Source: a virus. From it: a DNA stretch of 64,000 nucleotides. The position numbers and the translations under genes were made by a program. Below are positions 40,915-63,654 of the stretch, piece by piece; the stretch's first letter is position 1; every line of letters begins with the position of its first letter. The notes beneath the pieces were generated by a model, which saw only the letters and a list, made by a program, of their open reading frames with translations, had not been told where the DNA came from and made no database searches. The stretch covers positions 10,050-74,049 of IMG/VR virus record IMGVR_UViG_3300010354_000067. The stretch is one strand, 5' to 3'.

Positions 40915-41188
40915 ATGGAAAGATAAAGCAAAGTGTCTTGGAATGGACACCAATATATTTTTTGATAAGTATGAAGAGGATCAAAAGATTGCAGCGAGCA
41001 TAGATCTTTTATGTAGAGATTGCCCAGTAAATAGACAGTGTTTTGCCGTAGGTGTCTCCAACAAGGAATGGGGAGTCTGGGGTGGTGTTTATTTAAAAGA
41101 GGGAAACATCGACAAGGAGTTTAATGCTCATAAGACAAAGCAGTCATGGTTTGATACTTGGCAGTCCTTGACGATGGAGAAGAGATGA
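40907..41188 (+). CDS. whiB: WhiB family transcription factor
   Basis: C..FF...CRDCPV..C...GVWGG. Confidence 0.9.
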   Translation: MHKWKDKAKCLGMDTNIFFDKYEEDQKIAASIDLLCRDCPVNRQCFAVGVSNKEWGVWGGVYLKEGNIDKEFNAHKTKQSWFDTWQSLTMEKR

Positions 41189-54944: not shown

Positions 54945-55237
54945 TTTTGAGTCAATGAATGTTACTGTGTTATTTGGTGTGGATGGGATTGGGTTAAAGT
55001 GGATGAAAATGGGTTATAGAACAGAAGAAATAATCTTCGTAATCATTTTTTTGCTGCAAATCGCTGCCCCCAAAACACATCAAAACATGCGGGAATTTCC
55101 CCAAAATGTTACACAACCGTTATCAAAACGTTATAAACCAATTAATTATTTTCAAAAACATGGGCGATTTTTGAGATGCGTTCGTAATACTTTTTTTAAA
55201 TAAATTCGGACATGTTCCGGTCTGTCCCTATGTACTT
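54945..55237. other. Non-coding convergence zone between + and - arms, with repeats
   Basis: AT-rich; GTTAY x3 at 11-bp spacing; TTCGTAAT repeats. Confidence 0.55.
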
Positions 55238-55756
55238 CTATATAGCATAGATATCTATAGGACCAGAACAGGAGGGGGATATTTCTACCGCCGCAGACAA
55301 TGCTACTTTAATTCTTCTCTCTTGGTCTGCCCAATTGCGGGTGGTATAAAGAGATCCCAATGCAACATTGTTACCACTACCTATAGAAGACTCTGCAAAC
55401 TCGCATACCGACCAATCTTCTGATGATACTTCAAATAATCTACCATTGACTCCAATGAGCCAATCAGTTGAATTATCTTCTAAATGAGAAGCATTGCCAA
55501 ATTCCTCAATAGCAGTTTTGAGTGACTTAACAAAGGTGGTTCGTAAAGTCTTTTCTATGTTCTTTCCTATAGGGGGTAGATCTATATAATGTGCTAATTC
55601 ACCAATGCCAAGACTACCCGCGAATCCAATGAGATAATCCCCACACTGCTTGACTTTTGGGCGGGTAAGTGGTAAGAGAGTATTCCCATCTGATGCTGCT
55701 CTCTCTCCCCCTATATATACAATACCATCTCTGGCAATTCCTACAATACATGTCAT
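55238..55756 (-). CDS. HslV/proteasome-beta-like Ntn hydrolase
   Basis: MTCIVG N-terminal Thr; GFAGS; SIGSG..ALGSL; leaderless after TTGAAA-17-TATAAT (55791-55763). Confidence 0.75.
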   Translation of the reverse strand: MTCIVGIARDGIVYIGGERAASDGNTLLPLTRPKVKQCGDYLIGFAGSLGIGELAHYIDLPPIGKNIEKTLRTTFVKSLKTAIEEFGNASHLEDNSTDWLIGVNGRLFEVSSEDWSVCEFAESSIGSGNNVALGSLYTTRNWADQERRIKVALSAAVEISPSCSGPIDIYAI

Positions 55757-55964
55757 GGTCGCATTATATCCTAACTCGGGCGATTTTTCAAGTCCTTCGT
55801 AATACTTTTTATTTTGCAGATTCGGGCGATTTTATACATTCTTCGTAATGCTTTTTTATTTTTATTAAAGTTCCGGCCCCTACCCGCAGGATGCGAGCAG
55901 GAACAGGATAAAGAGAAACAAAACACATCCACCAAGGAATGCAGTTAATGCATCTCCACTGTGA

Positions 55965-56234
55965 TTACTCAAAGGTCATCACATCCTCTAGTGAGGAATA
56001 TTCTCCATAGTGGTCTACCTCTACAACCTCACAGAATGATTGCCACGTTTGCTCTATGAATGAGCGTCCTGCATCTGTAAGTGTTACAGCACCATTGACC
56101 ACAAGTACCGCCGCAGGGAAGCCAAGGTCGTTGTGTTCTATAAAGTCTGCATATTCTTCTGACCCTGAGTAGTCCATATAAAAGTCACTCAGTATCTCGC
56201 ACTTCTTAGAAAAGGGTGTATTGTCCATCGCCAA
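55965..56234 (-). CDS. Acidic hypothetical protein
   Basis: KCEILSD...NDLGFP.A. Confidence 0.55.
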   Translation of the reverse strand: MAMDNTPFSKKCEILSDFYMDYSGSEEYADFIEHNDLGFPAAVLVVNGAVTLTDAGRSFIEQTWQSFCEVVEVDHYGEYSSLEDVMTFE

Positions 56235-56409
56235 CTCCTGGTAGTTCGTCGTTATATGCCTTGATACTATTTGCCATTTCTACCAACTGATCGCGTACCC
56301 CCAAAGGAGACAGGTTGATAAGATGGAAGCCAAGCATATGCATGTCCATAGTAGTGTAACGCATATCTATAACCATGTCAAGCATCTTGATCGCTACTCT
56401 TTGCATCAT
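56206..56409 (-). CDS. Hypothetical protein
   Basis: GGAGG RBS after promoter 56445-56417. Confidence 0.5.
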   Translation of the reverse strand: MMQRVAIKMLDMVIDMRYTTMDMHMLGFHLINLSPLGVRDQLVEMANSIKAYNDELPGVGDGQYTLF

Positions 56410-56468
56410 ACCTCCAAGCATACAGGATGGGGGGCAGCCTGTCAAGACTACCCCCCAACCAATTTATG

Positions 56469-56627
56469 TTAGCGAGACTTGACAGTCTGGCCCTTGCGAA
56501 GCGCGGTAAGCGAGATGTTGTCCACAAACTTACCATTACGACGGATAACGATACGATCCGACAGACCGTAGCGGGTATCCCACTGCTCCAGATAATTGTA
56601 GGTTGGAGCCTTCTTCTTGCTTGCCAT
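56469..56627 (-). CDS. Small basic protein (not in ORF track)
   Basis: MASKKKAPTYNYLEQWDTRYG..., AAGGAG RBS. Confidence 0.6.
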   Translation of the reverse strand: MASKKKAPTYNYLEQWDTRYGLSDRIVIRRNGKFVDNISLTALRKGQTVKSR

Positions 56628-56667
56628 TATTTCTCCTTAGTTAGATATATCTTCCTATTGGGAAGTC

Positions 56668-56826
56668 TTAGAATACCTGCTCAATTACAGGCTCGCCAAA
56701 ATAGATAAACTCATCTGACGATGTATCCATGTCGTCCATAGTGCAGTATGCAGCCGTCACCTTATGCTCATCAGATGAACGCACCAGAAAAGCCACGGGA
56801 ACCTTGACGAGATACAGATTATCCAT
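56668..56826 (-). CDS. Small hypothetical protein (not in ORF track)
   Basis: MDNLYLVKVPVAFLVRSS..., 52 aa. Confidence 0.45.
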   Translation of the reverse strand: MDNLYLVKVPVAFLVRSSDEHKVTAAYCTMDDMDTSSDEFIYFGEPVIEQVF

Positions 56827-56827
56827 G

Positions 56828-57121
56828 TTACACCTTCTCAATCATAGACAGCGGAGTTGTGATATTAGTATAGAACCTGCCATGACGATTGTCAAGATCA
56901 ATGACAACTTTTGTGCGATTGATCTTTACTACCCGCCCTGTCGCACCATTGAGATACTTAGGATTAGTATTCACCATCTTGATACGATCACCAACCTGAA
57001 ACTCCCAGATCTTGGGACGCATATCCTTCTTACGCAACTGAATAGTCTGCATCATTCCATCCAGATACTCATCGAATTCCCCTGACAGAACAGGGACGGC
57101 AAAGTCATTATGGTAGTCCAT
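56828..57121 (-). CDS. SH3/KOW-like hypothetical protein
   Basis: FQVGDRIK...PKYLNGATGRVVKINRTKVVI. Confidence 0.55.
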   Translation of the reverse strand: MDYHNDFAVPVLSGEFDEYLDGMMQTIQLRKKDMRPKIWEFQVGDRIKMVNTNPKYLNGATGRVVKINRTKVVIDLDNRHGRFYTNITTPLSMIEKV

Positions 57122-57291
57122 TAGATCTCCTCAATCTCAATCGAATCCTGAATCTCAGTACCAGTATGCACGATCTCCTCCATATCATACGCCTGATCGT
57201 GCCAAATGTCAAGAGCCTTTCGCTTGGAATCAGCCTCAATCACGACCTCATACCAATCTTCCTCGGTCCATGAAATAAGATACTTAGGCAT
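57121..57291 (-). CDS. Small acidic protein (not in ORF track)
   Basis: MPKYLISWTEEDWYEVVIEADS..., coupled stop/start. Confidence 0.55.
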   Translation of the reverse strand: MPKYLISWTEEDWYEVVIEADSKRKALDIWHDQAYDMEEIVHTGTEIQDSIEIEEI

Positions 57292-58422
57292 TAGATCCTC
57301 CCCAGCACATTGCGGAAGCCAAGATCATAGACAAACATCTCAGTTTGGTTCCATGCAGACTCACCATAGAACAACTTAGACTTGCGAACACCATCAATGG
57401 TGTACGTCACACGGAAGAAGTCAGGGAAAGGATGACCCTGCTCAACCATAGCGTGCTTATTCTGCCCACGCCAATCTGTATCAATGAAGTCCTCAAACAA
57501 GACATACCACTTGGATACATCCTTGACAGACGGACGCTTAGACGGACGGTAGTGCGAGATGGAACTCATCATACTCCTTTAGTGTGTGGATAACGAAGTC
57601 TACACCAATCTCCCTCAGAATGTCAAGGTAGAGATCGAATTCATTTTGACCTTGGAGATCACGAATGCAGGTGGTAGTAGGTTCATCCCATACCTCCCAA
57701 TAAGGCTCACCCCTGCCACAATCAATCTCGTAGATGTGTCTCATTGTAGTATCTCCACTTGGATTCTGAATAGTCAAAGTCAAATAGTTCTAGTTGTTCA
57801 TCCATATTTATTCCTCTCGTTGGATCGTTGTTTACCACAGACTACCCCGCTTTTCAGGCACACCGACTGAGGGAGGGAGTGGTGGGGGTTGATTACTAAG
57901 TCTAGCAGTTACATCCGATAACATGTAGCGAATATCGGGGTCACCATTATCATCGATATCTGCTATCATACTAATGCACTTGGCAAGCATGTCTTGCTGA
58001 CCAAGCAGATATGCCTCTTTGATTGCTTGGTCCAAGTCATCATCAGCACCAAGAATCTGCTCCATTGCCACCGCCGTAACCTTGGTAATAGCGGCATTAG
58101 CCTCGTGTGCTAAAACAACCTCATACTCTCCCAATTGCGGGGTATCGCTCAATGGACCACGAGCACCATAAACGTGCATTCACAGTTCTCCATTCACAAC
58201 AGGGGAGGGCCAGATAGTAACGAGAGAGTTTAGCATCTGCCAACACTTCATGTCAAGGGCTTCCTCATGGCTACCCTCCTCGGGAATAGTCCAACCATAG
58301 CCAGTCTCGTCAGCAGCCTTGTCATCCCACAGGCTACCGTCAGGAAAATAGGCGGTAGGGTCAAACTCAACCCACCAACGATCCTTCTCAGAATCATATC
58401 CAACAACGTAGTGAAACTGCAT
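57291..58422 (-). other. Four small hypothetical genes (57291-57572, 57538-57783, 57832-58179, 58180-58422)
   Basis: Packed - strand ORFs. Confidence 0.5.
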
Positions 58423-58595
58423 TAGTAGTCCTCATCTTCCTCATCGTCATTACGCGGGGGGTTGTCCATGATCTGAAGCAGCCCACTATTCAGCAGGTAC
58501 TCCAACTGCCCCATGCCATCAAGGATCTCATCAGACTCAAACTCATAGTCTGCTATGCCATTGCCACAGTCAATGTAACCAGAATAAATAGGCAT
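58422..58595 (-). CDS. Small acidic protein, tandem paralog B (not in ORF track)
   Basis: MPIYSGYIDCGNGIADYEFESDEILDGMGQLEYLLNSGLLQIMDNPPRNDDEEDEDY. Confidence 0.65.
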   Translation of the reverse strand: MPIYSGYIDCGNGIADYEFESDEILDGMGQLEYLLNSGLLQIMDNPPRNDDEEDEDY

Positions 58596-58759
58596 TAGTC
58601 CTCCTCATCCAGTTCTACTCGGGGGTTGTCAACGATCTGAAGAATACCAGTATCCAGCAGGTAAGTCAACTGTCCCATGACATCCAACTCTTCCTCAGAC
58701 TCAAACTCATAGGATGCCTCCTCAAGTCCGCAGTCAATAGTTCCAGAATAAAGATACAT
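58595..58759 (-). CDS. Small acidic protein, tandem paralog A (not in ORF track)
   Basis: MYLYSGTIDCGLEEASYEFESEEELDVMGQLTYLLDTGILQIVDNPRVELDEED. Confidence 0.65.
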   Translation of the reverse strand: MYLYSGTIDCGLEEASYEFESEEELDVMGQLTYLLDTGILQIVDNPRVELDEED

Positions 58760-59937
58760 TATGCCTCCACCTCCGTTGCCTCAATGAGAATATTATCAAG
58801 GATGTGCTGAACAACCTCATTCTCGTCCATGTCGCCCATCTCGTCAAAGAATTCAGTATACATGGGCTTGCCCTCAAACTCAATATAGATATCCCAAGTC
58901 TTGTGCTCCATCATCCCTCCTGAAAATTGTGGTAGTAACGAGTCCACGGAAGTTGGGTATCATCCGTGTAGAAGTCAAGCGTGCCCTCCACGCCGTCAGA
59001 CTTGCGCTTGACAATAGCCCACCCATAGGCGAAGCCAAGCACTTCATATTGCTCTAGCATCTGCTCTTTTGTCATATCCATAGGCCCATCCTAGTCTACG
59101 CTGCTCCCCATGTCAAGCCCTCGCGCTGCCAATCTGCGCCATGCTCAAGGAAGGCAGCCTCCAACTTCTGCATCCAACGGTAGGACTGAGACTCCTCCCA
59201 TGCTCCCATGTGCTCACAAGACTGATAAGAATAGAAATGAACCATCTTGAGAGCCTGATCAAAGTCATAGGGATCATAGGTCGTGCCGTTCTTGGCGTTA
59301 GACCGTGGCTCTGTGTAATGATAGGCAGGAGCCTTCTGATACTCAGGACGATACCAACCATAGCGAGCACGCAGACTGCGGTAGTTCTCCTTACGCAACT
59401 CCCTACCAATACTAGTCTTATCACGCTTGGACAAGCCAAGGGTACTGATCCAATAGGAAAGACAATCAATCTCACTATTACTAACAGACCAAGCAGACAC
59501 TAGTCCTCATCCTCCACAGTCCAATCAGCAGAAACCTCGTTCCAGTCAAAGTTCTCAGCATCGTAGGAATCACACTCAATGTTGTATGACAGATCAAAGT
59601 CATCATTGTCGAATCCAAGCGGCACATCAGCCTCAAACTCAACCTCAATAGTCATCGTGCCCTTGATACGCTTGGTCAGTTGGATATCAAGAAGACGAGC
59701 AACCTCTTCCATGTCCTCATCAATCTCACCATTCATAGAGTAGAGATCCATGATGTGACCCTTGACATTCTCAATCTTGCGCTGAAGGTAGACATAATCG
59801 GACTGCCACCGCTCATTAGACTTCTTGAGACTCTCAATCTGAATAAGCAGATCGTCACGGTCATTGGGCACGGGGGCAGAATGAAGATTACTAATCTTCT
59901 CAGTAAGCCCAGCAATAATCTCATCTGTCGTATTCAT
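58759..59937 (-). other. Four hypothetical genes (58759-58914, 58911-59081, 59096-59500, 59500-59937)
   Basis: Coupled - strand ORFs behind promoter 59993-59964. Confidence 0.55.
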
Positions 59938-60098
59938 TACACTCCTTGGTAGTAGATGGTGCAATCCTATACGATGGGTATGACACTTGTCAAGGGGGTT
60001 TCGGTGATTTTTTGGGAGAGTTCTTAATCGTTCGTAAATGAGTTTTGGTTTTATCAAAGTGATTTCCGGCCGCCTGGGGAGCCAATTGTCAAGTGTGA

Positions 60099-60125
60099 GA
60101 GCAGTTTAGACTCATGCTCAGGAGT
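60099..60125 (-). ncRNA. Small H-type pseudoknot motif, copy 1
   Basis: ACTC-CTGAGCAT-GAGT-CTAAAC-TGCTC. Confidence 0.55.
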
Positions 60126-60132
60126 GTGATGC

Positions 60133-61116
60133 TTAGGCGAATGCGACCTGACGCACAGCCTTCAGCATCGCGTTCTTTGCAGCGTTAGTCGCAGCATCGA
60201 AACCACTAGCAGACGCAAGCACAGACTCAGCGTTGCCATTGCGAGGGCTGCGATACCAGTCAAGGCGCTCAGTGAGTGCGTTGTATGCACCCCACGCAGT
60301 GCCCTTGATGTTGACGCAAGTCTCACCGTTGTAGATGGTGTTGAGAGTGTCGATCTTGTTCTCCCACTTGGTCATGCTGCCCTTGGTGTCAGCCTCGGGC
60401 TTGGGGTAGACAGCAGTGATGATATCGAAGAACTGCTTGTCATTGATCTCCTGCGAGATCATCTCCTGAGCCTGCTTGTCAAACTCGTCAAGGTACTTGT
60501 GCGCAAGGCCAAGCGCCTCACGAGCAGCAGCAACCTTGCCAGTGACAGTCTGAGTGTGGCGAATCTTGTAAGACTGCTTGACACCAGACAGTGCAGCATT
60601 GAGCGTATTCTGGCAGACAACACGCACAGGGGTAACGCTAGCCTGAACAGCAAGCGAACCATCATGCGAGGTATGCACGAGAAGGTAGGTGTTCACCTTA
60701 TCGGTAGCACCGTTAGGGTCAAGCACGATCTCACGATCAAGCGCGAGAGAACCGAACACGACCGTACCGCTCTTGATAGAACCAGCAGTCTCCCAACGAC
60801 CACCGTCCAGCATGTTGTCAGCGAATGAGAACAGTTCCTCATTCTGCACAACCTTGTAACGCTCACCCACAACGCCAAGAACGTCAGCGCCGTTATCGAA
60901 TGGGTTAGTGCGAACGACCGCGAAGTACGGACGATGCGTGCGACCTGGGAGGTCGATATCCTCAATGCGAACATCCCAATCGTTGAGATGTGCAGCAGCG
61001 AGCATCTCGCTCGTGGTGACCTCAGTGTCAAGGATGGTGCCAAGACCGTGCCACGCAGGTTCCCGCAGGGATGCGAAGGAAGCCATCTCGCCGTACTGCT
61101 CCAGCATGTGTGCCAT
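60133..61116 (-). CDS. DUF932/DUF945 family protein
   Basis: PAWHGLG, YKVVQN, SHDGS, TPVRVVCQNTL, GTAWGAYNA. Confidence 0.88.
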   Translation of the reverse strand: MAHMLEQYGEMASFASLREPAWHGLGTILDTEVTTSEMLAAAHLNDWDVRIEDIDLPGRTHRPYFAVVRTNPFDNGADVLGVVGERYKVVQNEELFSFADNMLDGGRWETAGSIKSGTVVFGSLALDREIVLDPNGATDKVNTYLLVHTSHDGSLAVQASVTPVRVVCQNTLNAALSGVKQSYKIRHTQTVTGKVAAAREALGLAHKYLDEFDKQAQEMISQEINDKQFFDIITAVYPKPEADTKGSMTKWENKIDTLNTIYNGETCVNIKGTAWGAYNALTERLDWYRSPRNGNAESVLASASGFDAATNAAKNAMLKAVRQVAFA

Positions 61117-61150
61117 TTGTGTTTTCCAATCTGTAGTAACTGATGGCATA

Positions 61151-61179
61151 AGCATACGCCTATTAGGATGAGTTGTCAA
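61151..61179 (-). promoter_or_regulatory. sigma70-type early promoter
   Basis: TTGACA-17-TATGCT; same class at 56445-56417, 59993-59964, 62221-62192, 62786-62758, 63133-63104. Confidence 0.7.
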
Positions 61180-61326
61180 GGGGTATTTTCTAGGTTTTGG
61201 CGAAATTCTGGGTGTGGTCTTAATCACATCGTAAAGGCTTGACAAATGGAGATTTTTGCGACCGGCCTGGAAGAGTCCCCCTAGGGAGCAATGGTGGGTG
61301 GGGGTATGCTCAACCTAGGGGGACAG

Positions 61327-61399
61327 CGATTCTGATGGGATTCGAACCCACGACCTCCACCGTGACAGGGTGGCGAGCACTCCGCTGCTCTACAGAACC
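61327..61399 (-). tRNA. tRNA-Asp(GUC)
   Basis: GGTTCTG/CAGAATC acceptor, loop CTGTCAC, GGTTCGAATCC. Confidence 0.88.
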
Positions 61400-61406
61400 A
61401 GTGTGC

Positions 61407-61433
61407 AGCAGTTTTACATCATGCTCAGGATGT
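61407..61433 (-). ncRNA. Small H-type pseudoknot motif, copy 2
   Basis: ACATC-CTGAGCAT-GATGT-AAAAC-TGCT. Confidence 0.55.
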
Positions 61434-61547
61434 TCGGGGGATATCCCCAAATAAAGTTGCTAGGTATTCCCTGAGGACTCCTAGCAGTTAGTGTTACGGA
61501 CTGGTATTGCAACCAATGAGTATGCATCCTCTTAGTTTTTCCGCTTA

Positions 61548-61618
61548 CGCACCCTGTCAAGGAATCGAACCCTGCAAGACAAGTTTTGGAGGCTCGTCTG
61601 TACCCAGTACCCAAGGCG
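61548..61618 (-). tRNA. Atypical tRNA-Trp(CCA)-like RNA with reduced D-arm
   Basis: GACGAG-cCTCCAAAa-CTTGTC anticodon arm; CAGGG-TTCGATT-CCTTG T-arm. Confidence 0.55.
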
Positions 61619-61829
61619 TGGGGAATGCTTATTCGGCTTCACATTCCAATACCACCTGACGGATACACTGTGTACCCTGCTAGTTATAACATTCACGAAC
61701 AGGTGGGGGGAAGCGAGTCGATGCTGGCTAGTTCCGACTCCCACGGAACTCTAGCACTAATGGTCCAACGAACCATCGCGGGTCGCATATCCCCAAGCCA
61801 CTATTTAGTTATCTTGTGATTGTATCACA

Positions 61830-61976
61830 TTACTTGACGGTTGTCCACCGCATACCGTTGGCAGTAGCCAGACGGACACGGATGGAACCTGACGGATTCT
61901 GAACGATCTCCTCAATCGTTCCCTCCACACCACTCTTCTGAGTAGTGAACTGCGAGCCAACAGTCAGAGTTGCCAT
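61830..61976 (-). CDS. Small SH3-like protein
   Basis: MATLTVGSQFTTQKSGVEGTIEEIV; AAGGAAG RBS. Confidence 0.6.
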   Translation of the reverse strand: MATLTVGSQFTTQKSGVEGTIEEIVQNPSGSIRVRLATANGMRWTTVK

Positions 61977-62004
61977 TTTGCTTCCTTTCGTTTGTTTGTT
62001 TGTT

Positions 62005-62154
62005 TTACTTGCCAACGATGACAAGAGTCTGGGGGGTAGCCTGAGTCTGGTTGGTTGCACCAATGAACGTACCCTCAGGAGTACGCACAACAGCCTTGAT
62101 GACTGCACCCTGCTGAGTGTTCCACTTCTCAGTGCGAACGATGACCTTGGACAT
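62005..62154 (-). CDS. Small protein, first gene after promoter (not in ORF track)
   Basis: MSKVIVRTEKWNTQQGAVIKAVVRTPEGTFIG... Confidence 0.55.
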   Translation of the reverse strand: MSKVIVRTEKWNTQQGAVIKAVVRTPEGTFIGATNQTQATPQTLVIVGK

Positions 62155-62248
62155 TTACGAACCCACTTTCGTTGTTGTTGTTATGATGGATATTCTAGTC
62201 GATGGTGGGGGTACTTGTCAAGACTTTCCCCCCACCGTTATCAAACTG

Positions 62249-62725
62249 TTACCAAGAGGCACGGTAGATGAAGTCAACCCAAGTATCAGGGCCAACAGAT
62301 GCGAGAACCTTGTCCAACTGACGGACAGTATTCTGCAAGTCCTCCATGTACCACTCATCATAGTCATACGAGCCAAAGAAGAATCCAGGCTGAGTAGGCA
62401 GAGCAGTAGAAGCCATGGCAGGCTGTTCGATGATTGACTTGCACAGATCGCGCAACTCCATCAACTTGTCATGCGAGACATAGATGGACTGACACTCATC
62501 GCGTCCACCATCCAGATCGCAGAACCACTTATGCACGGCATTGGCCTTGCGCCAATACGCAACGCAAATGTCAACATAGGCGTGAGGCGAACCCTCGCAA
62601 CGATCAACATTCATGTATTCACGAATCGCGTCATACATGGCACGCTCATCCTTACCGTCATCGACGGTCTTCCATTCCCAACCACCGACATACTCACGAC
62701 GGTACAGGTACATATCAAGTCCCAT
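62249..62725 (-). CDS. Conserved phage protein (MGLDMY/YWRKAN family)
   Basis: MGLDMYL, YWRKANAVH.WF, GFFFGS..YDEWY, terminal Y.ASW. Confidence 0.7.
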   Translation of the reverse strand: MGLDMYLYRREYVGGWEWKTVDDGKDERAMYDAIREYMNVDRCEGSPHAYVDICVAYWRKANAVHKWFCDLDGGRDECQSIYVSHDKLMELRDLCKSIIEQPAMASTALPTQPGFFFGSYDYDEWYMEDLQNTVRQLDKVLASVGPDTWVDFIYRASW

Positions 62726-62763
62726 TTGGAACCCACCTTTCCTTGTTTGTTAGTAGAACCCTA

Positions 62764-63654
62764 TCACAGATCAGATGTGCTGTCAAGGATTATGCGAAAC
62801 TTTTTTGAGAATTCTGCCTCAATGTGACGACGGTAGCCTTCCTCATCGACCAACACGAAGCGGTAGTCAAGGGTGTCCCCATCCTCAATCTCTACAATTC
62901 TGTAGACAGCACCCTGCACAGTAATTTGATCCCCCACCTCAAGAGAGTACGCTTCCATCAGATCAGTAGTCATTCTGGTTCTCCTTCTTCCAATTGATCT
63001 TCTCACGCTTGCGAATGATCTTAGCAGACTCGCGGGGGTAGCAGCAAGTGCATCCCTTGTGTCCATTCCTCGCAATGTTCCTGTTTGATCTCAACATGGT
63101 ATGACCCTATCACATGATAACACAGGCTGTCAAGGACTCAGGCCAAAAAAATGCTGTTTCTTAAATCACTTCTTAAAGTCTTGACAGATGGTAACTTGTG
63201 TGCCGGATTTCTCTTTCAGCATCTTCCATAGACAATAATAGCAGCAGCCAAAAGGAATAATCCGCCAAAGAATCCTAGGATATTGCTGTTCACTCTATCC
63301 CCAATTCCTTTTCGATACGATCAGCAATGTAGATTAGGTCAAAGTCATAGTCGTCCATTACGTTACCCCTGATATTTGCGAGGCATAGATCACGAATGGT
63401 CAGCAATACATCATGATTCCAATTCATTTGATAGTAGTAGCCACCGAATTCATTTTCTTTACGCATGGCTAGATATCTCTCCCTTGTGCCCTCGCTTGTT
63501 CGACTAATGACCATAGTTCTTGCATGATGTATAGTTCTTCATCATCAATGATCCATTCATCATCACGCACGATCTTCTCCACATTCGGGGCAGGGAGGAT
63601 ATTCCATGTTGTCCATTTGATGTGCGATGAGCATTCCTCGCCAATCATCATCAA
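62764..63654 (-). other. Small hypothetical genes (62764-62973, 63290-63514, 63469-63654 and others)
   Basis: Short - strand ORFs. Confidence 0.45.

What the first reader, a model, noticed from the sequence alone, without database searches (positions are those of the whole stretch)
55182..63206. Repeated TCGTAA-N24-29-CCGG element punctuating the early-arm modules, with TTGACA-N16/17-CCGG pseudo-promoters
Seen: five intergenic copies on the + strand: TCGTAA 55182/CCGG 55217, 55843/55873, 60032/60066, 61229/61262, and TCTTAA 63171/63203. Three have an extra TCTTAA 10-12 bp to the left. In three copies a perfect TTGACA points at the palindromic CCGG from promoter distance (61239 +, 17 nt; 63181 +, 16 nt; 60092 -, 17 nt), so CCGG replaces the -10. 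Four copies sit directly upstream of a real - strand promoter. Inference: an undescribed cis-system such as RNAP-loading or decoy sites, sites for a phage factor, or recombination sites shuffling promoter-gene cassettes (the DUF932 gene lies between two copies).
Basis: partly seen in the sequence, partly recalled or inferred. Interest (0 to 1): 0.8.

Follow-up and report, generated by a model that had tools for sequence, protein, structure and literature searches.

The report
CCGG-cored control module heading early cassettes
A lake actinobacterial phage has removed the restriction-type word CCGG from its whole genome except inside a conserved, oriented stretch of about 100 bp upstream of its early promoters, so this stretch is a real regulatory module, probably read by a protein not yet identified.

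Summary
TCGTAA-N24-29-CCGG occurs 4 times against 0.11 expected, and TTGACA-N16/17-CCGG 3 times against 0.07. CCGG occurs only 5 times in the 74-kb record (44-124 expected), and all five sites are these elements. AGCT occurs 0 times.

Seven related uncultured phages show the same pattern: all 46 CCGG sites (window included) lie in intergenic boxes of this kind.

Read on the gene (-) strand, the module is:
- a GC box with a CCGG core;
- a slot of fixed length, holding a -35-like TTGACA 16-17 bp away, or AT-rich DNA, or, in relatives, two DnaA boxes;
- direct repeats of TTACGA/TTAAGA, strictly oriented (80 copies forward, 0 reverse);
- A-rich AAAATCGCC words;
- a sigma-A-type promoter.

CCGG-free relatives carry GGCCGCGCCCC at the same place. 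No conserved RNA fold was found, and the repeat is not enriched in host-order genomes.

My best reading is a DNA-level control module read by a trans-acting factor, placed at the head of early transcription units. A pure recombination role is poorly supported, and RNA polymerase docking cannot be excluded.

This scan noted the same kind of element before on other DNA (e1-6042698, e1-6063677). I found no paper describing it.

The parts
63104..63206 (-). Module E5. CCGG 63203-63206; antisense TTGACA 63181-63186 (16 nt from CCGG); TTAAGA repeats (TCTTAA on + strand) at 63171-63176 and 63159-63164; T/A-rich stretch; -35 TTGACA 63128-63133; -10 TAGGGT 63104-63109.
61151..61265 (-). Module E4, upstream of DUF932. 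CCGG 61262-61265; antisense TTGACA 61239-61244 (17 nt from CCGG); TTACGA 61229-61234; TTAAGA 61218-61223, inside TGTGATTAAGACCACA; AATTTCGCCAAAA; -35 61174-61179; -10 TATGCT 61151-61156.
   Evidence: In orthologues of 8 relatives the CCGG, TTTGTCAA and TTTACGATGTGATTAAGA blocks are kept while the flanks vary.
59964..60092 (-). Module E3, downstream of DUF932 and heading the long operon 59937->55965. Sense TTGACA 60087-60092 (17 nt before CCGG); CCGG 60066-60069; AT-rich slot; TTACGA 60032-60037; TTAAGA 60022-60027; AAAAAATCACC; -35 59988-59993; -10 TAGGAT 59964-59969.
55763..55876 (-). Module E2, upstream of the HslV-like peptidase gene. CCGG 55873-55876, forming the 3' shoulder of a strong hairpin that reaches to about 55908; AT-rich slot; TTACGAAG 55843-55848 and 55797-55802, each followed by AAAATCGCCCGA; -35 TTGAAA 55786-55791; -10 TATAAT 55763-55768; ATG at 55756.
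   Evidence: hairpin -24.5 kcal/mol, z -5.0; peptidase phrog_1040
55128..55220 (-). Module E1, after the last - strand gene. CCGG 55217-55220; AT-rich slot; TTACGAAC 55182-55187; AAAAATCGCCC; weak promoter-like TTGAAA 55150-55155 / TAACGT 55128-55133. A further lone TTACGAAG lies at 55037-55042.
   Evidence: Its best match elsewhere is the E2-position module of L004.

Best explanation
The five copies are instances of a regulatory DNA module of about 90-115 bp that is conserved across a phage family and oriented with the genes. It stands at the head of each major early (- strand) transcription unit of an uncultured freshwater actinophage.

Layout, read 5'->3' on the gene strand:
1. A distal GC box with core CCGG, directly after the upstream stop codon or RNA element.
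2. A slot of fixed length. In this window it holds either a -35-like CTTGACA pointing at CCGG from 16-17 bp, or AT-rich DNA. In relatives it can hold two DnaA boxes.
3. One to three direct repeats of (A/T)TTACGAA or TTAAGAA, 10-13 bp apart. The first starts 28-33 bp after CCGG.
4. A-rich AAAATCGCC-type words.
5. A TTGACA/TAnnnT promoter, with its -35 starting 73-86 bp after CCGG.

Proposed working, which is inferred and not shown: the TTAMGA repeats are tandem binding sites for a sequence-specific transcription factor, more likely encoded by the phage than by the host. This factor would set the strength or timing of these promoters. The GC box would be a second recognition point or boundary, bound by the same complex or by a partner on the same face of the helix. 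Because the box is needed, its CCGG survives the selection that has removed CCGG, and all AGCT, from the rest of the genome.

Shown here: the anatomy, the spacing, the strand bias, conservation under divergence, restriction of CCGG to the box, and the absence of a conserved RNA fold.

Inferred: that a protein binds, which protein it is, and whether it activates or represses.
For: CCGG confined to the box:
- 5 of 5 genomic CCGG lie in the modules. AGCT occurs 0 times against about 235-290 expected.
- In 8 genomes (the window plus L001, L003, L004, L006, L008, L012, L018), all 46 CCGG are intergenic boxes of this kind.
- Nine sampled genomes of the likely host order are not depleted in CCGG or AGCT, and CTGG/CCAG show no excess. 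The purge is therefore selection acting on the phage.

Geometry:
- TGTCAA starts at +20/21 in 16 sites. A sense TTGACA lies 17 nt upstream in 6 sites and 13 nt upstream in one more.
- The first TTAMGA starts at +27..+33 in most sites, or at +39/40. The -35 clusters at +71-76 and +82-87.

Strand bias and enrichment:
- In the modules, TTAAGA occurs 41 times and TTACGA 39 times forward, and 0 times reverse. This is 37-fold and 19-fold over background.
- ATTACGAA occurs 60 times against 4.6 expected, with 9 on the reverse strand.

Conservation:
- In orthologous modules whose adjacent gene is about 70-80% identical in DNA, CCGG, TTTGTCAA and TTTACGA..ATTAAGA are kept while the spacers vary.
- Each genome has its own flavour of every word. 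L018 and L019 use TTAAGA and L003/L005/L006 use TTACGA. The box is CCGG-type in one clade and GGCCGCGCCCC in another. CCGG flanks are more alike within a genome than between genomes (p 4e-4).

Against other levels of action:
- No conserved RNA structure (0 and 3 predicted pairs), and no Rfam family other than tRNA.
- The tandem repeat is not enriched in 151 and 61 host-order genomes.
Against: - No DNA-binding protein could be nominated. Pfam and PHROGs give nothing for the early ORFs, and the record is only about 69% complete.
- At least 8 other TTGACA-type promoters in the same arm lack the module, so it is not needed for promoter function as such.
- The GC box occurs in both orientations. 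In 2 of the 5 window copies it is part of a strong hairpin. Both points also fit a boundary or attenuator role.
- The genome-specific flavours could come from recombination among modules rather than from co-evolution with a factor.
- The repeats are less fixed relative to the -35 (31-55 nt upstream) than relative to CCGG.
- 'Early' is inferred from promoter type and gene content, not measured.
Confidence: 0.5

Rival explanations
1. PeSL-like boundary cassette. The GC box would be an attenuator, terminator or roadblock that closes the upstream unit, and the rest would be only an AT-rich upstream region plus a promoter. The repeated cassettes would serve mainly as recombination points that reshuffle early gene cassettes.
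For: - The box follows directly after stop codons or RNA elements.
- In relatives a hairpin plus T-run precedes it. In CCGG-free relatives it is a G-run/C-run palindrome (GGGGCCGCGCCCC), like the polyG/polyC stem-loops of PeSLs (PMC2839356).
- E2 and E1 carry strong hairpins (z -5.0 and -3.0).
- A block inversion in L002/L005/L007/L013 ends at two of the element-bearing junctions.
- W E5, E3 and E1 match modules at other positions better than their positional counterparts.
Against: - 3 of 5 window copies have no significant hairpin at the box (z >= 0.3).
- The terminator scan finds none at the elements.
- This reading does not explain the oriented TTAMGA repeats at a fixed distance from the box (80:0).
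- Most gene presence/absence differences lie inside the E3-E2 operon, at junctions without modules.
Confidence: 0.22
2. RNA polymerase docking site. TTGACA-N16/17-CCGG would be a pseudo-promoter without a -10. It would bind sigma-A holoenzyme in a closed complex that cannot melt the GC core, and so act as a local reservoir, a decoy or a head-on roadblock next to the real promoter.
For: - The hexamer is a perfect -35 with the same flanks (CTTGACAA) as the real promoters, and an A-rich stretch lies just upstream of it.
- The spacing is the promoter optimum in 22 of 23 arms across 8 genomes.
- The pattern occurs 3 times in the window against 0.07 expected.
- The arm is invariant (TTTGTCAA) in 9 orthologues.
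Against: - The arm is absent from E1 and E2 and from 23 of the 46 sites. In relatives DnaA boxes or AT-rich DNA take its place.
- It is rare in the CCGG-free clade.
- It occurs in either orientation.
- It does not explain why the core must be CCGG rather than any GC-rich word.
Confidence: 0.12
3. Switch coupled to restriction-modification or to nicking. The CCGG would be kept because a CCGG-specific enzyme of the host or the phage (methyltransferase, endonuclease or nickase) acts there. Examples are a methylation mark that separates incoming from replicated DNA, or a site-specific nick.
For: - The invariant core is exactly the tetranucleotide that is purged elsewhere.
- The flanks vary while the core stays.
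- No methyltransferase is found in the record, so any mark would be made by the host.
Against: - Related clades run the same module with GGCCGCGCCCC and hold no CCGG at all, so CCGG is not required by the module family.
- There is no direct evidence for any enzyme, mark or nick.
Confidence: 0.08
4. RNA-level signal in read-through early transcripts, such as a processing site or a structured leader.
For: In several copies no terminator separates the upstream genes from the module, so the module is probably transcribed as well.
Against: RNAalifold finds 0 and 3 pairs with no covariation, and Rfam finds nothing. Conservation lies in the primary sequence, with promoter-like geometry.
Confidence: 0.04
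5. Chance, or a neutral relic of recent duplication.
For: Only five copies are present in this window.
Against: Shuffle tests reject chance. The copies are diverged from one another (alignment scores 10-20 over 70 nt). Position and core are conserved in 7 or more relatives.
Confidence: 0.02

Closest known systems
PeSL (promoter-early stem-loop) cassettes of T4-type phages (Arbiol et al. 2010, PMC2839356)
   Same: Both are repeated intergenic cassettes in the early, ORFan-rich part of a lytic-type phage. Both hold a sigma-70-type promoter, an AT-rich upstream region and a G/C-run element, and both begin at the stop codon of the upstream gene. Here, copies have swapped positions between related genomes and one rearrangement ends at them.
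   Different: - There is no consistent stem-loop: only 2 of 5 copies have one.
- This module has oriented TTAMGA direct repeats and a 4-bp core at a fixed distance, which PeSLs are not described to have.
- There are about 5-8 copies per early arm rather than about 50.
- Most gene flux lies elsewhere.
- The host is an actinobacterium and the phage lineage is unrelated.
- Mini-circles were not tested.
Operators and stoperators of cluster A mycobacteriophages (L5 gp71-type repressor; McGinnis et al. 2022, PMC9283540)
   Same: Both are short asymmetric words repeated in intergenic spaces and promoter regions of an actinophage, with an orientation locked to the direction of transcription. Here the ratio is 80:0. 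Variants are genome-specific, which suggests co-evolution with a phage protein.
   Different: - Stoperators are single 13-mers, more than 20 per genome and spread over the whole genome, bound by the immunity repressor of temperate phages.
- Here the words are 7-8-mers in tandem, found only upstream of a few early promoters and tied to a GC box.
- No repressor or integrase was found.
- The sequences differ.
Tandem direct-repeat activator sites upstream of promoters (OmpR/PhoB-type response regulators; lambda CII TTGC-N6-TTGC), from general knowledge
   Same: Two or three direct repeats lie about one helical turn apart, in one orientation, upstream of a -35.
   Different: - The repeats lie further upstream: the proximal repeat starts 31-44 nt before the -35 in E3-E5, and 11 nt before it in E2.
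- Their distance is fixed to a distal GC box rather than to the promoter.
- The binder is unknown.
- The motif is not enriched in host-order genomes.
Restriction-site (palindrome) avoidance in phage genomes, from general knowledge
   Same: CCGG (5 against 44-124 expected) and AGCT (0 against about 235) are lost across the whole phage genome, while sampled host-order genomes are not depleted.
   Different: The remaining sites are not random leftovers. Every one is the conserved core of a regulatory module, and this holds across 8 diverged genomes.

Membership tests
PeSL cassette (T4-type phages) | [quoted passage not shown] | tested here: met
   TTGACA/TAnnnT promoters follow 4 of 5 copies and a weaker one follows the fifth. 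The region between the box and the -35 is A/T-rich.
PeSL cassette (T4-type phages) | Stable stem-loop in the cassette that acts as a terminator or attenuator | tested here: not met
   Only E2 (-24.5 kcal/mol, z -5.0) and E1 (z -3.0) have one. E3, E4 and E5 have z >= 0.3. The terminator scan finds none at the elements.
PeSL cassette (T4-type phages) | Recombination between copies causes the insertions, deletions and replacements between close relatives | tested here: inconclusive
   Module swapping and one inversion bounded by modules point this way. Most presence/absence differences lie at junctions without modules.
Stoperator/operator system of cluster A mycobacteriophages | Asymmetric site with orientation locked to transcription | tested here: met
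   TTAAGA occurs 41:0 and TTACGA 39:0 forward:reverse in the modules.
Stoperator/operator system of cluster A mycobacteriophages | More than 20 single 13-mer sites spread through the genome, plus a cognate immunity repressor (PMC9283540) | tested here: not met
   Intergenic sites lie only in the - strand arm, in tandem and upstream of promoters. No repressor-like or HTH protein was recognised.
Sigma-70/sigma-A promoter (for the TTGACA-N16/17-CCGG unit) | -35 hexamer and a 16-18 bp spacer | tested here: met
   Perfect TTGACA at 16-17 nt in 3 window copies and in 22 of 23 arms overall.
Sigma-70/sigma-A promoter (for the TTGACA-N16/17-CCGG unit) | -10 hexamer TAnnnT | tested here: not met
   The position is occupied by CCGG(G/A/C)N, and no TAnnnT lies within reach.
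CRP/FNR-type site | TGTGA-N6-TCACA palindrome at an activating position (-61.5, -71.5, ...) | tested here: not met
   Only E4 resembles it (TGTGATTAAGACCACA, 9 of 10). E5 matches 7 of 10 and the others do not match. By my count, its centre is near -77, which is out of phase. The transcription start is only predicted.
DnaA-box cluster | Two or more TTATCCACA boxes in the module | tested here: not met
   None lies at the five window copies, and there is no enrichment in the window (18 against 20 expected). Eight modules of relatives do have two boxes at +8/9 and +19/20.
Host transcription-factor regulon | The same tandem motif enriched in host genomes | tested here: not met
   TTACGA-N4-5-TTAAGA gives 10 hits in 151 Nanopelagicales-order genomes, fewer than the reversed-pattern control. 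TTAMGA-N4-6-TTAMGA gives 37 hits in 61 genomes, again well below the control. The host assignment itself rests on one binned contig.

The most novel reading that the evidence does not exclude
The CCGG box may be a deliberate point of contact with a CCGG-reading enzyme or with RNA polymerase. On this reading the phage keeps the host restriction-modification target only at the heads of its early cassettes. The methylation state of incoming versus replicated DNA, or a bound holoenzyme on a pseudo-promoter without a -10, would then gate early transcription and at the same time shield the sites from cleavage.
Probability: 0.12. Interest if true: 0.85.

Novelty: new variant of a known kind. Interest (0 to 1): 0.62.

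Why it matters
It gives a sharply defined, testable regulatory module for a large and abundant group of uncultured lake actinophages, for which almost nothing is known about gene control.

The pattern 'restriction word purged everywhere except in one conserved cis-element' is also a general trick for finding functional sites. In a genome under restriction avoidance, the surviving sites mark sequence that selection will not give up.

If a phage factor binds the repeats, it would be a new early regulator. If the CCGG is read by a host enzyme or by polymerase, it would link defence evasion and transcription timing.

Tried and rejected
- **Intrinsic curvature or strict 10.5-bp phasing.** The AT profile aligned on CCGG shows AT-rich blocks, but the periodogram is flat. 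The Rayleigh test on -35 distances is significant for any period from 9.5 to 14. I therefore claim only two distance classes (about 74 and about 84), not phasing.
- **CRP site.** Only E4 fits, and it is out of phase.
- **DnaA boxes.** Present in modules of relatives but not in this window.
- **Host regulon.** Not found.
- **Deamination as the cause of CCGG loss.** There is no CTGG/CCAG excess.
- **Same element in cultured Streptomyces BE-cluster phages.** No recurrent GGCCGGAA-type box was found in five loci. This does not confirm what note e1-6042698 says.
- **Known RNA family or conserved fold.** None.
- **A DNA-binding protein, sigma factor or methyltransferase in the record.** None was recognised. 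Only WhiB was found, at window 40916-41098.
- **Alternative sigma consensus** (sigma-28-like GCCGATAA, SigK-like CCGAAT). This is a resemblance recalled from memory only. The orientation is mostly antisense to the genes, so I did not pursue it.
- **Counting CCGG directly in host genomes.** I sampled 20-kb stretches instead.
- **Literature.** Four searches found no description of this element.

Full report
**What the DNA is.** The window is bases 10050-74049 of a single 74,049-bp IMG/VR virus record. The record is a linear fragment that CheckV rates about 69% complete. Several results point to an actinophage of a low-GC freshwater actinobacterium:
- It encodes WhiB.
- Its DnaE is about 54% identical to that of Streptomyces cluster BE phages.
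- The closest non-viral hit to its DUF932 protein is a 1.6-kb contig binned in a Candidatus Nanopelagicales MAG.

The host assignment is weak, because it rests on one binned contig. Genes run on the + strand up to about 54,944. From 55,238 to the end of the contig a - strand arm of small ORFs follows, with many TTGACA/TAnnnT promoters. I call this arm 'early' from that evidence alone.

**Check of the observation.** TCGTAA-N24-29-CCGG occurs 4 times against 0.11 expected. TTGACA-N16-17-CCGG occurs 3 times against 0.07 expected. Four copies lie just upstream of - strand promoters with -35 at 63133, 61179, 59993 and 55791. The fifth lies before a weaker promoter-like site. The gene between two copies is DUF932.

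**The main new fact.** CCGG occurs only five times in the whole record, against 44 expected (order-2 Markov) or 124 (base composition). All five sites are the elements. AGCT occurs zero times against about 235-290 expected. Nine sampled genomes of the likely host order have normal CCGG and AGCT counts, and the phage shows no excess of CTGG or CCAG. The loss is therefore selection on the phage, the usual signature of restriction avoidance, and not a mutational bias. I found no methyltransferase in the record.

**Relatives.** The DUF932 protein retrieved 80 loci from IMG/VR. Seven of them (L001, L003, L004, L006, L008, L012, L018) are CCGG-poor in the same way. Counting the window, all 46 CCGG sites in these 8 genomes are intergenic boxes of the same kind. 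One of the 46 lies inside an AAAATCGCC word. The early arm is syntenic at about 65-97% DNA identity, with gaps. In alignments of the orthologous modules on either side of DUF932, four blocks are kept while the sequence between them varies: CCGG, TTTGTCAA, TTTACGA(T/A)NNNATTAAGA and the -35. Because these genomes have diverged this far and still hold no CCGG outside the boxes, counter-selection is continuing and the box sites are being kept against it.

**Anatomy on the gene strand.** With the first C of CCGG as position 0:
- TGTCAA starts at +20/21 in 16 sites, that is, a TTGACA on the other strand 16-17 nt away.
- A sense TTGACA lies 17 nt upstream in 6 sites and 13 nt upstream in one more. 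No site has both arms.
- In eight modules of relatives, two DnaA boxes occupy +8/9 and +19/20 instead.
- The remaining sites have AT-rich DNA in this slot.
- The first TTAMGA starts at +27..+33 in most sites, or at +39/40 in the modules downstream of DUF932.
- A second TTAMGA follows 10-13 nt later.
- AAAATCGC-type words centre near +58.
- The -35 starts at +71-76 or +82-87.

Within the modules, TTAAGA (41 copies) and TTACGA (39 copies) occur only in the gene orientation, and never in reverse. They are 37-fold and 19-fold enriched over the rest of the loci. Over 232 kb of loci, ATTACGAA occurs 60 times against 4.6 expected, with only 9 on the other strand. The repeats are placed more tightly relative to CCGG than relative to the promoter. 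In E3-E5 the proximal repeat lies 31, 34 or 44 nt before the -35. CCGG, the slot and the repeats therefore form one upstream unit.

**Wider family.** Relatives with no CCGG at all (L002, L005, L007, L013, L015, L019 and others) carry the same module. Their box reads GGGGCCGCGCCCC, GGGGCGCCCC or GCCGCGCCCC, lies about 13-20 nt before the TTACGA/TTAAGA repeats, and occurs 4-11 times per locus. The module family can thus work without CCGG. The CCGG type and the GCGC type differ by roughly one inserted base (GGCCG-GCCCC against GGCCGCGCCCC). Each genome has its own uniform flavour of each word:
- L018 and L019 use TTAAGA almost only, while L003, L005 and L006 use TTACGA.
- The words proximal to the promoter differ by genome (AAAATCGCC, TTCCTGGAA, ATCCCCAG).
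- CCGG flanks are more alike within a genome than between genomes (0.475 against 0.424, permutation p 4e-4).

Concerted change of this kind is expected if a trans-acting reader co-evolves with its sites. It is also expected if the modules recombine with each other.

**What the module is not.**
- There is no conserved RNA secondary structure in either orthologous set (0 and 3 predicted pairs, no covariation).
- There is no Rfam hit other than tRNA-Asp.
- It is not a general terminator. The scan finds none at the elements. Only E2 and E1 have strong hairpins that include the box (z -5.0 and -3.0), and E3-E5 have none.
- It is not a host regulon. The tandem repeat is no more frequent than a reversed control in 151 and 61 genomes of the Nanopelagicales order.
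- It does not hold DnaA boxes in this window.
- It is not shared in recognisable form with the Streptomyces BE phages I looked at.
- I could not show helical phasing or curvature.

**Recombination.**
- Protein-level synteny shows a conserved backbone with the modules at fixed places. The order is DUF7178 gene, E5, five small genes, an RNA array with tRNA-Asp, E4, DUF932, E3, a long operon, E2, and the HslV-like peptidase gene.
- Most gene presence/absence differences lie inside the long operon, at junctions without modules.
- One block inversion shared by L002, L005, L007 and L013 has both ends at module-bearing junctions. An inversion that survives must carry a whole transcription unit, so this is weak evidence.
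- W E5, E3 and E1 match modules at other positions in relatives better than their positional counterparts, so modules do get exchanged.
- This resembles the PeSL cassettes of T4-type phages (PMC2839356) in outline, but not in the defining stem-loop.

**Mechanism.** I commit, at about 0.5, to a DNA-level control module read by one or more sequence-specific trans-factors. On this reading the oriented TTAMGA direct repeats are the main binding sites. The factor is more likely phage-encoded, given the negative host search and the genome-specific variants. The GC box is a second contact or boundary at a fixed distance. The TTGACA arm at promoter spacing makes contact with sigma-A region 4 plausible in 3 of the 5 copies. 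The arm is optional across the family, so I rank polymerase docking as a rival (0.12). The boundary or PeSL-like reading gets 0.22. A role tied to a CCGG-reading enzyme gets 0.08, an RNA role 0.04 and chance 0.02. Binding, the identity of the binder and the sign of the effect are all inferred.

**Earlier notes of this scan.** Two notes on other genomes describe the same kind of element.
- e1-6042698 describes a CCGG-cored boundary motif in a freshwater actinophage.
- e1-6063677 describes convergent TTGACA arms around GGCCCGGCAC, followed by a CRP-like box and a promoter, and compares it to PeSLs.

My results agree on the CCGG restriction and on the module order. They differ in two respects. 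No site in my 46 has both arms, and I did not find the signal in Streptomyces BE loci. Four literature searches found no published description.

Noticed in passing
whole record (window 1-64000 and the 10 kb before it): AGCT is completely absent (0 against about 235-290 expected). ACGT, GTAC, TCGA and GGCC are at 0.5-0.7 of expectation. Relatives differ in which 4-mers are purged: AGCT is 0 in L003, L006, L008 and L018; GGCC, CGCG and GCGC are near 0 in L021; CGCG is 0 in L024, L025 and L031.
   Followed up: partly
L001-L018 and other relatives; weak form at window 59975-59993: The commonest over-represented word in the relatives is TGTCAGACC(C), just after the -35 (TTGACAAATGTCAGACC; 71 copies against 4.5 expected). 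With the -35 it forms a TGACA-NN-TGTCA palindrome and may be an operator. In the window only the 59993 promoter has it (CTTGACAAGTGTCATACC).
   Followed up: no
L001, L004, L008, L012, L018, 5-10 nt before many CCGG boxes: A 26-bp word, AAAACCGTTGGTATATAAGGGTTTTT, occurs in either orientation between the upstream stop codon and the box. It is a weak AU-rich hairpin with a T-run. It is absent from the window.
   Followed up: no
L001 4703; L004 2968 and 4374; L008 5039 and 6287; L012 4351; L018 3932 and 5525: Some modules of relatives carry two or more perfect DnaA boxes (TTATCCACA) at +8/9 and +19/20 from CCGG. They lie upstream of genes that would fall beyond the end of this contig. This could be an origin, or use of DnaA as a transcription factor.
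   Followed up: partly
window 55754-55768: The -10 TATAAT of the HslV-like peptidase gene ends 6 nt before its ATG, so the mRNA is probably leaderless. The same arrangement is seen in L004, L008 and L012.
   Followed up: no
window 55080-55155 (- strand): After module E1, a weak promoter-like site (TTGAAA-16-TAACGT) is followed about 35 nt later by the only terminator-like hairpin of the region (55103-55090 plus a T-run). This could be a very short RNA, or simply the end of the arm.
   Followed up: no
window 60099-60132 and 61270-61325 (- strand): A conserved CCTGAGCATGA..TAAAACTGCTC element follows the DUF932 stop. A CCCCCTAGG...CCTAGGGGG element follows tRNA-Asp. Both are conserved in relatives and lie just before modules E3 and E4. 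They are the subject of other notes on this window.
   Followed up: no
L002, L005, L007, L013 compared with window 61800-63115: The block of five small genes between E5 and E4 is inverted in these relatives, which gives a divergent promoter region with the GC box in the middle (L007 8700-8830).
   Followed up: partly
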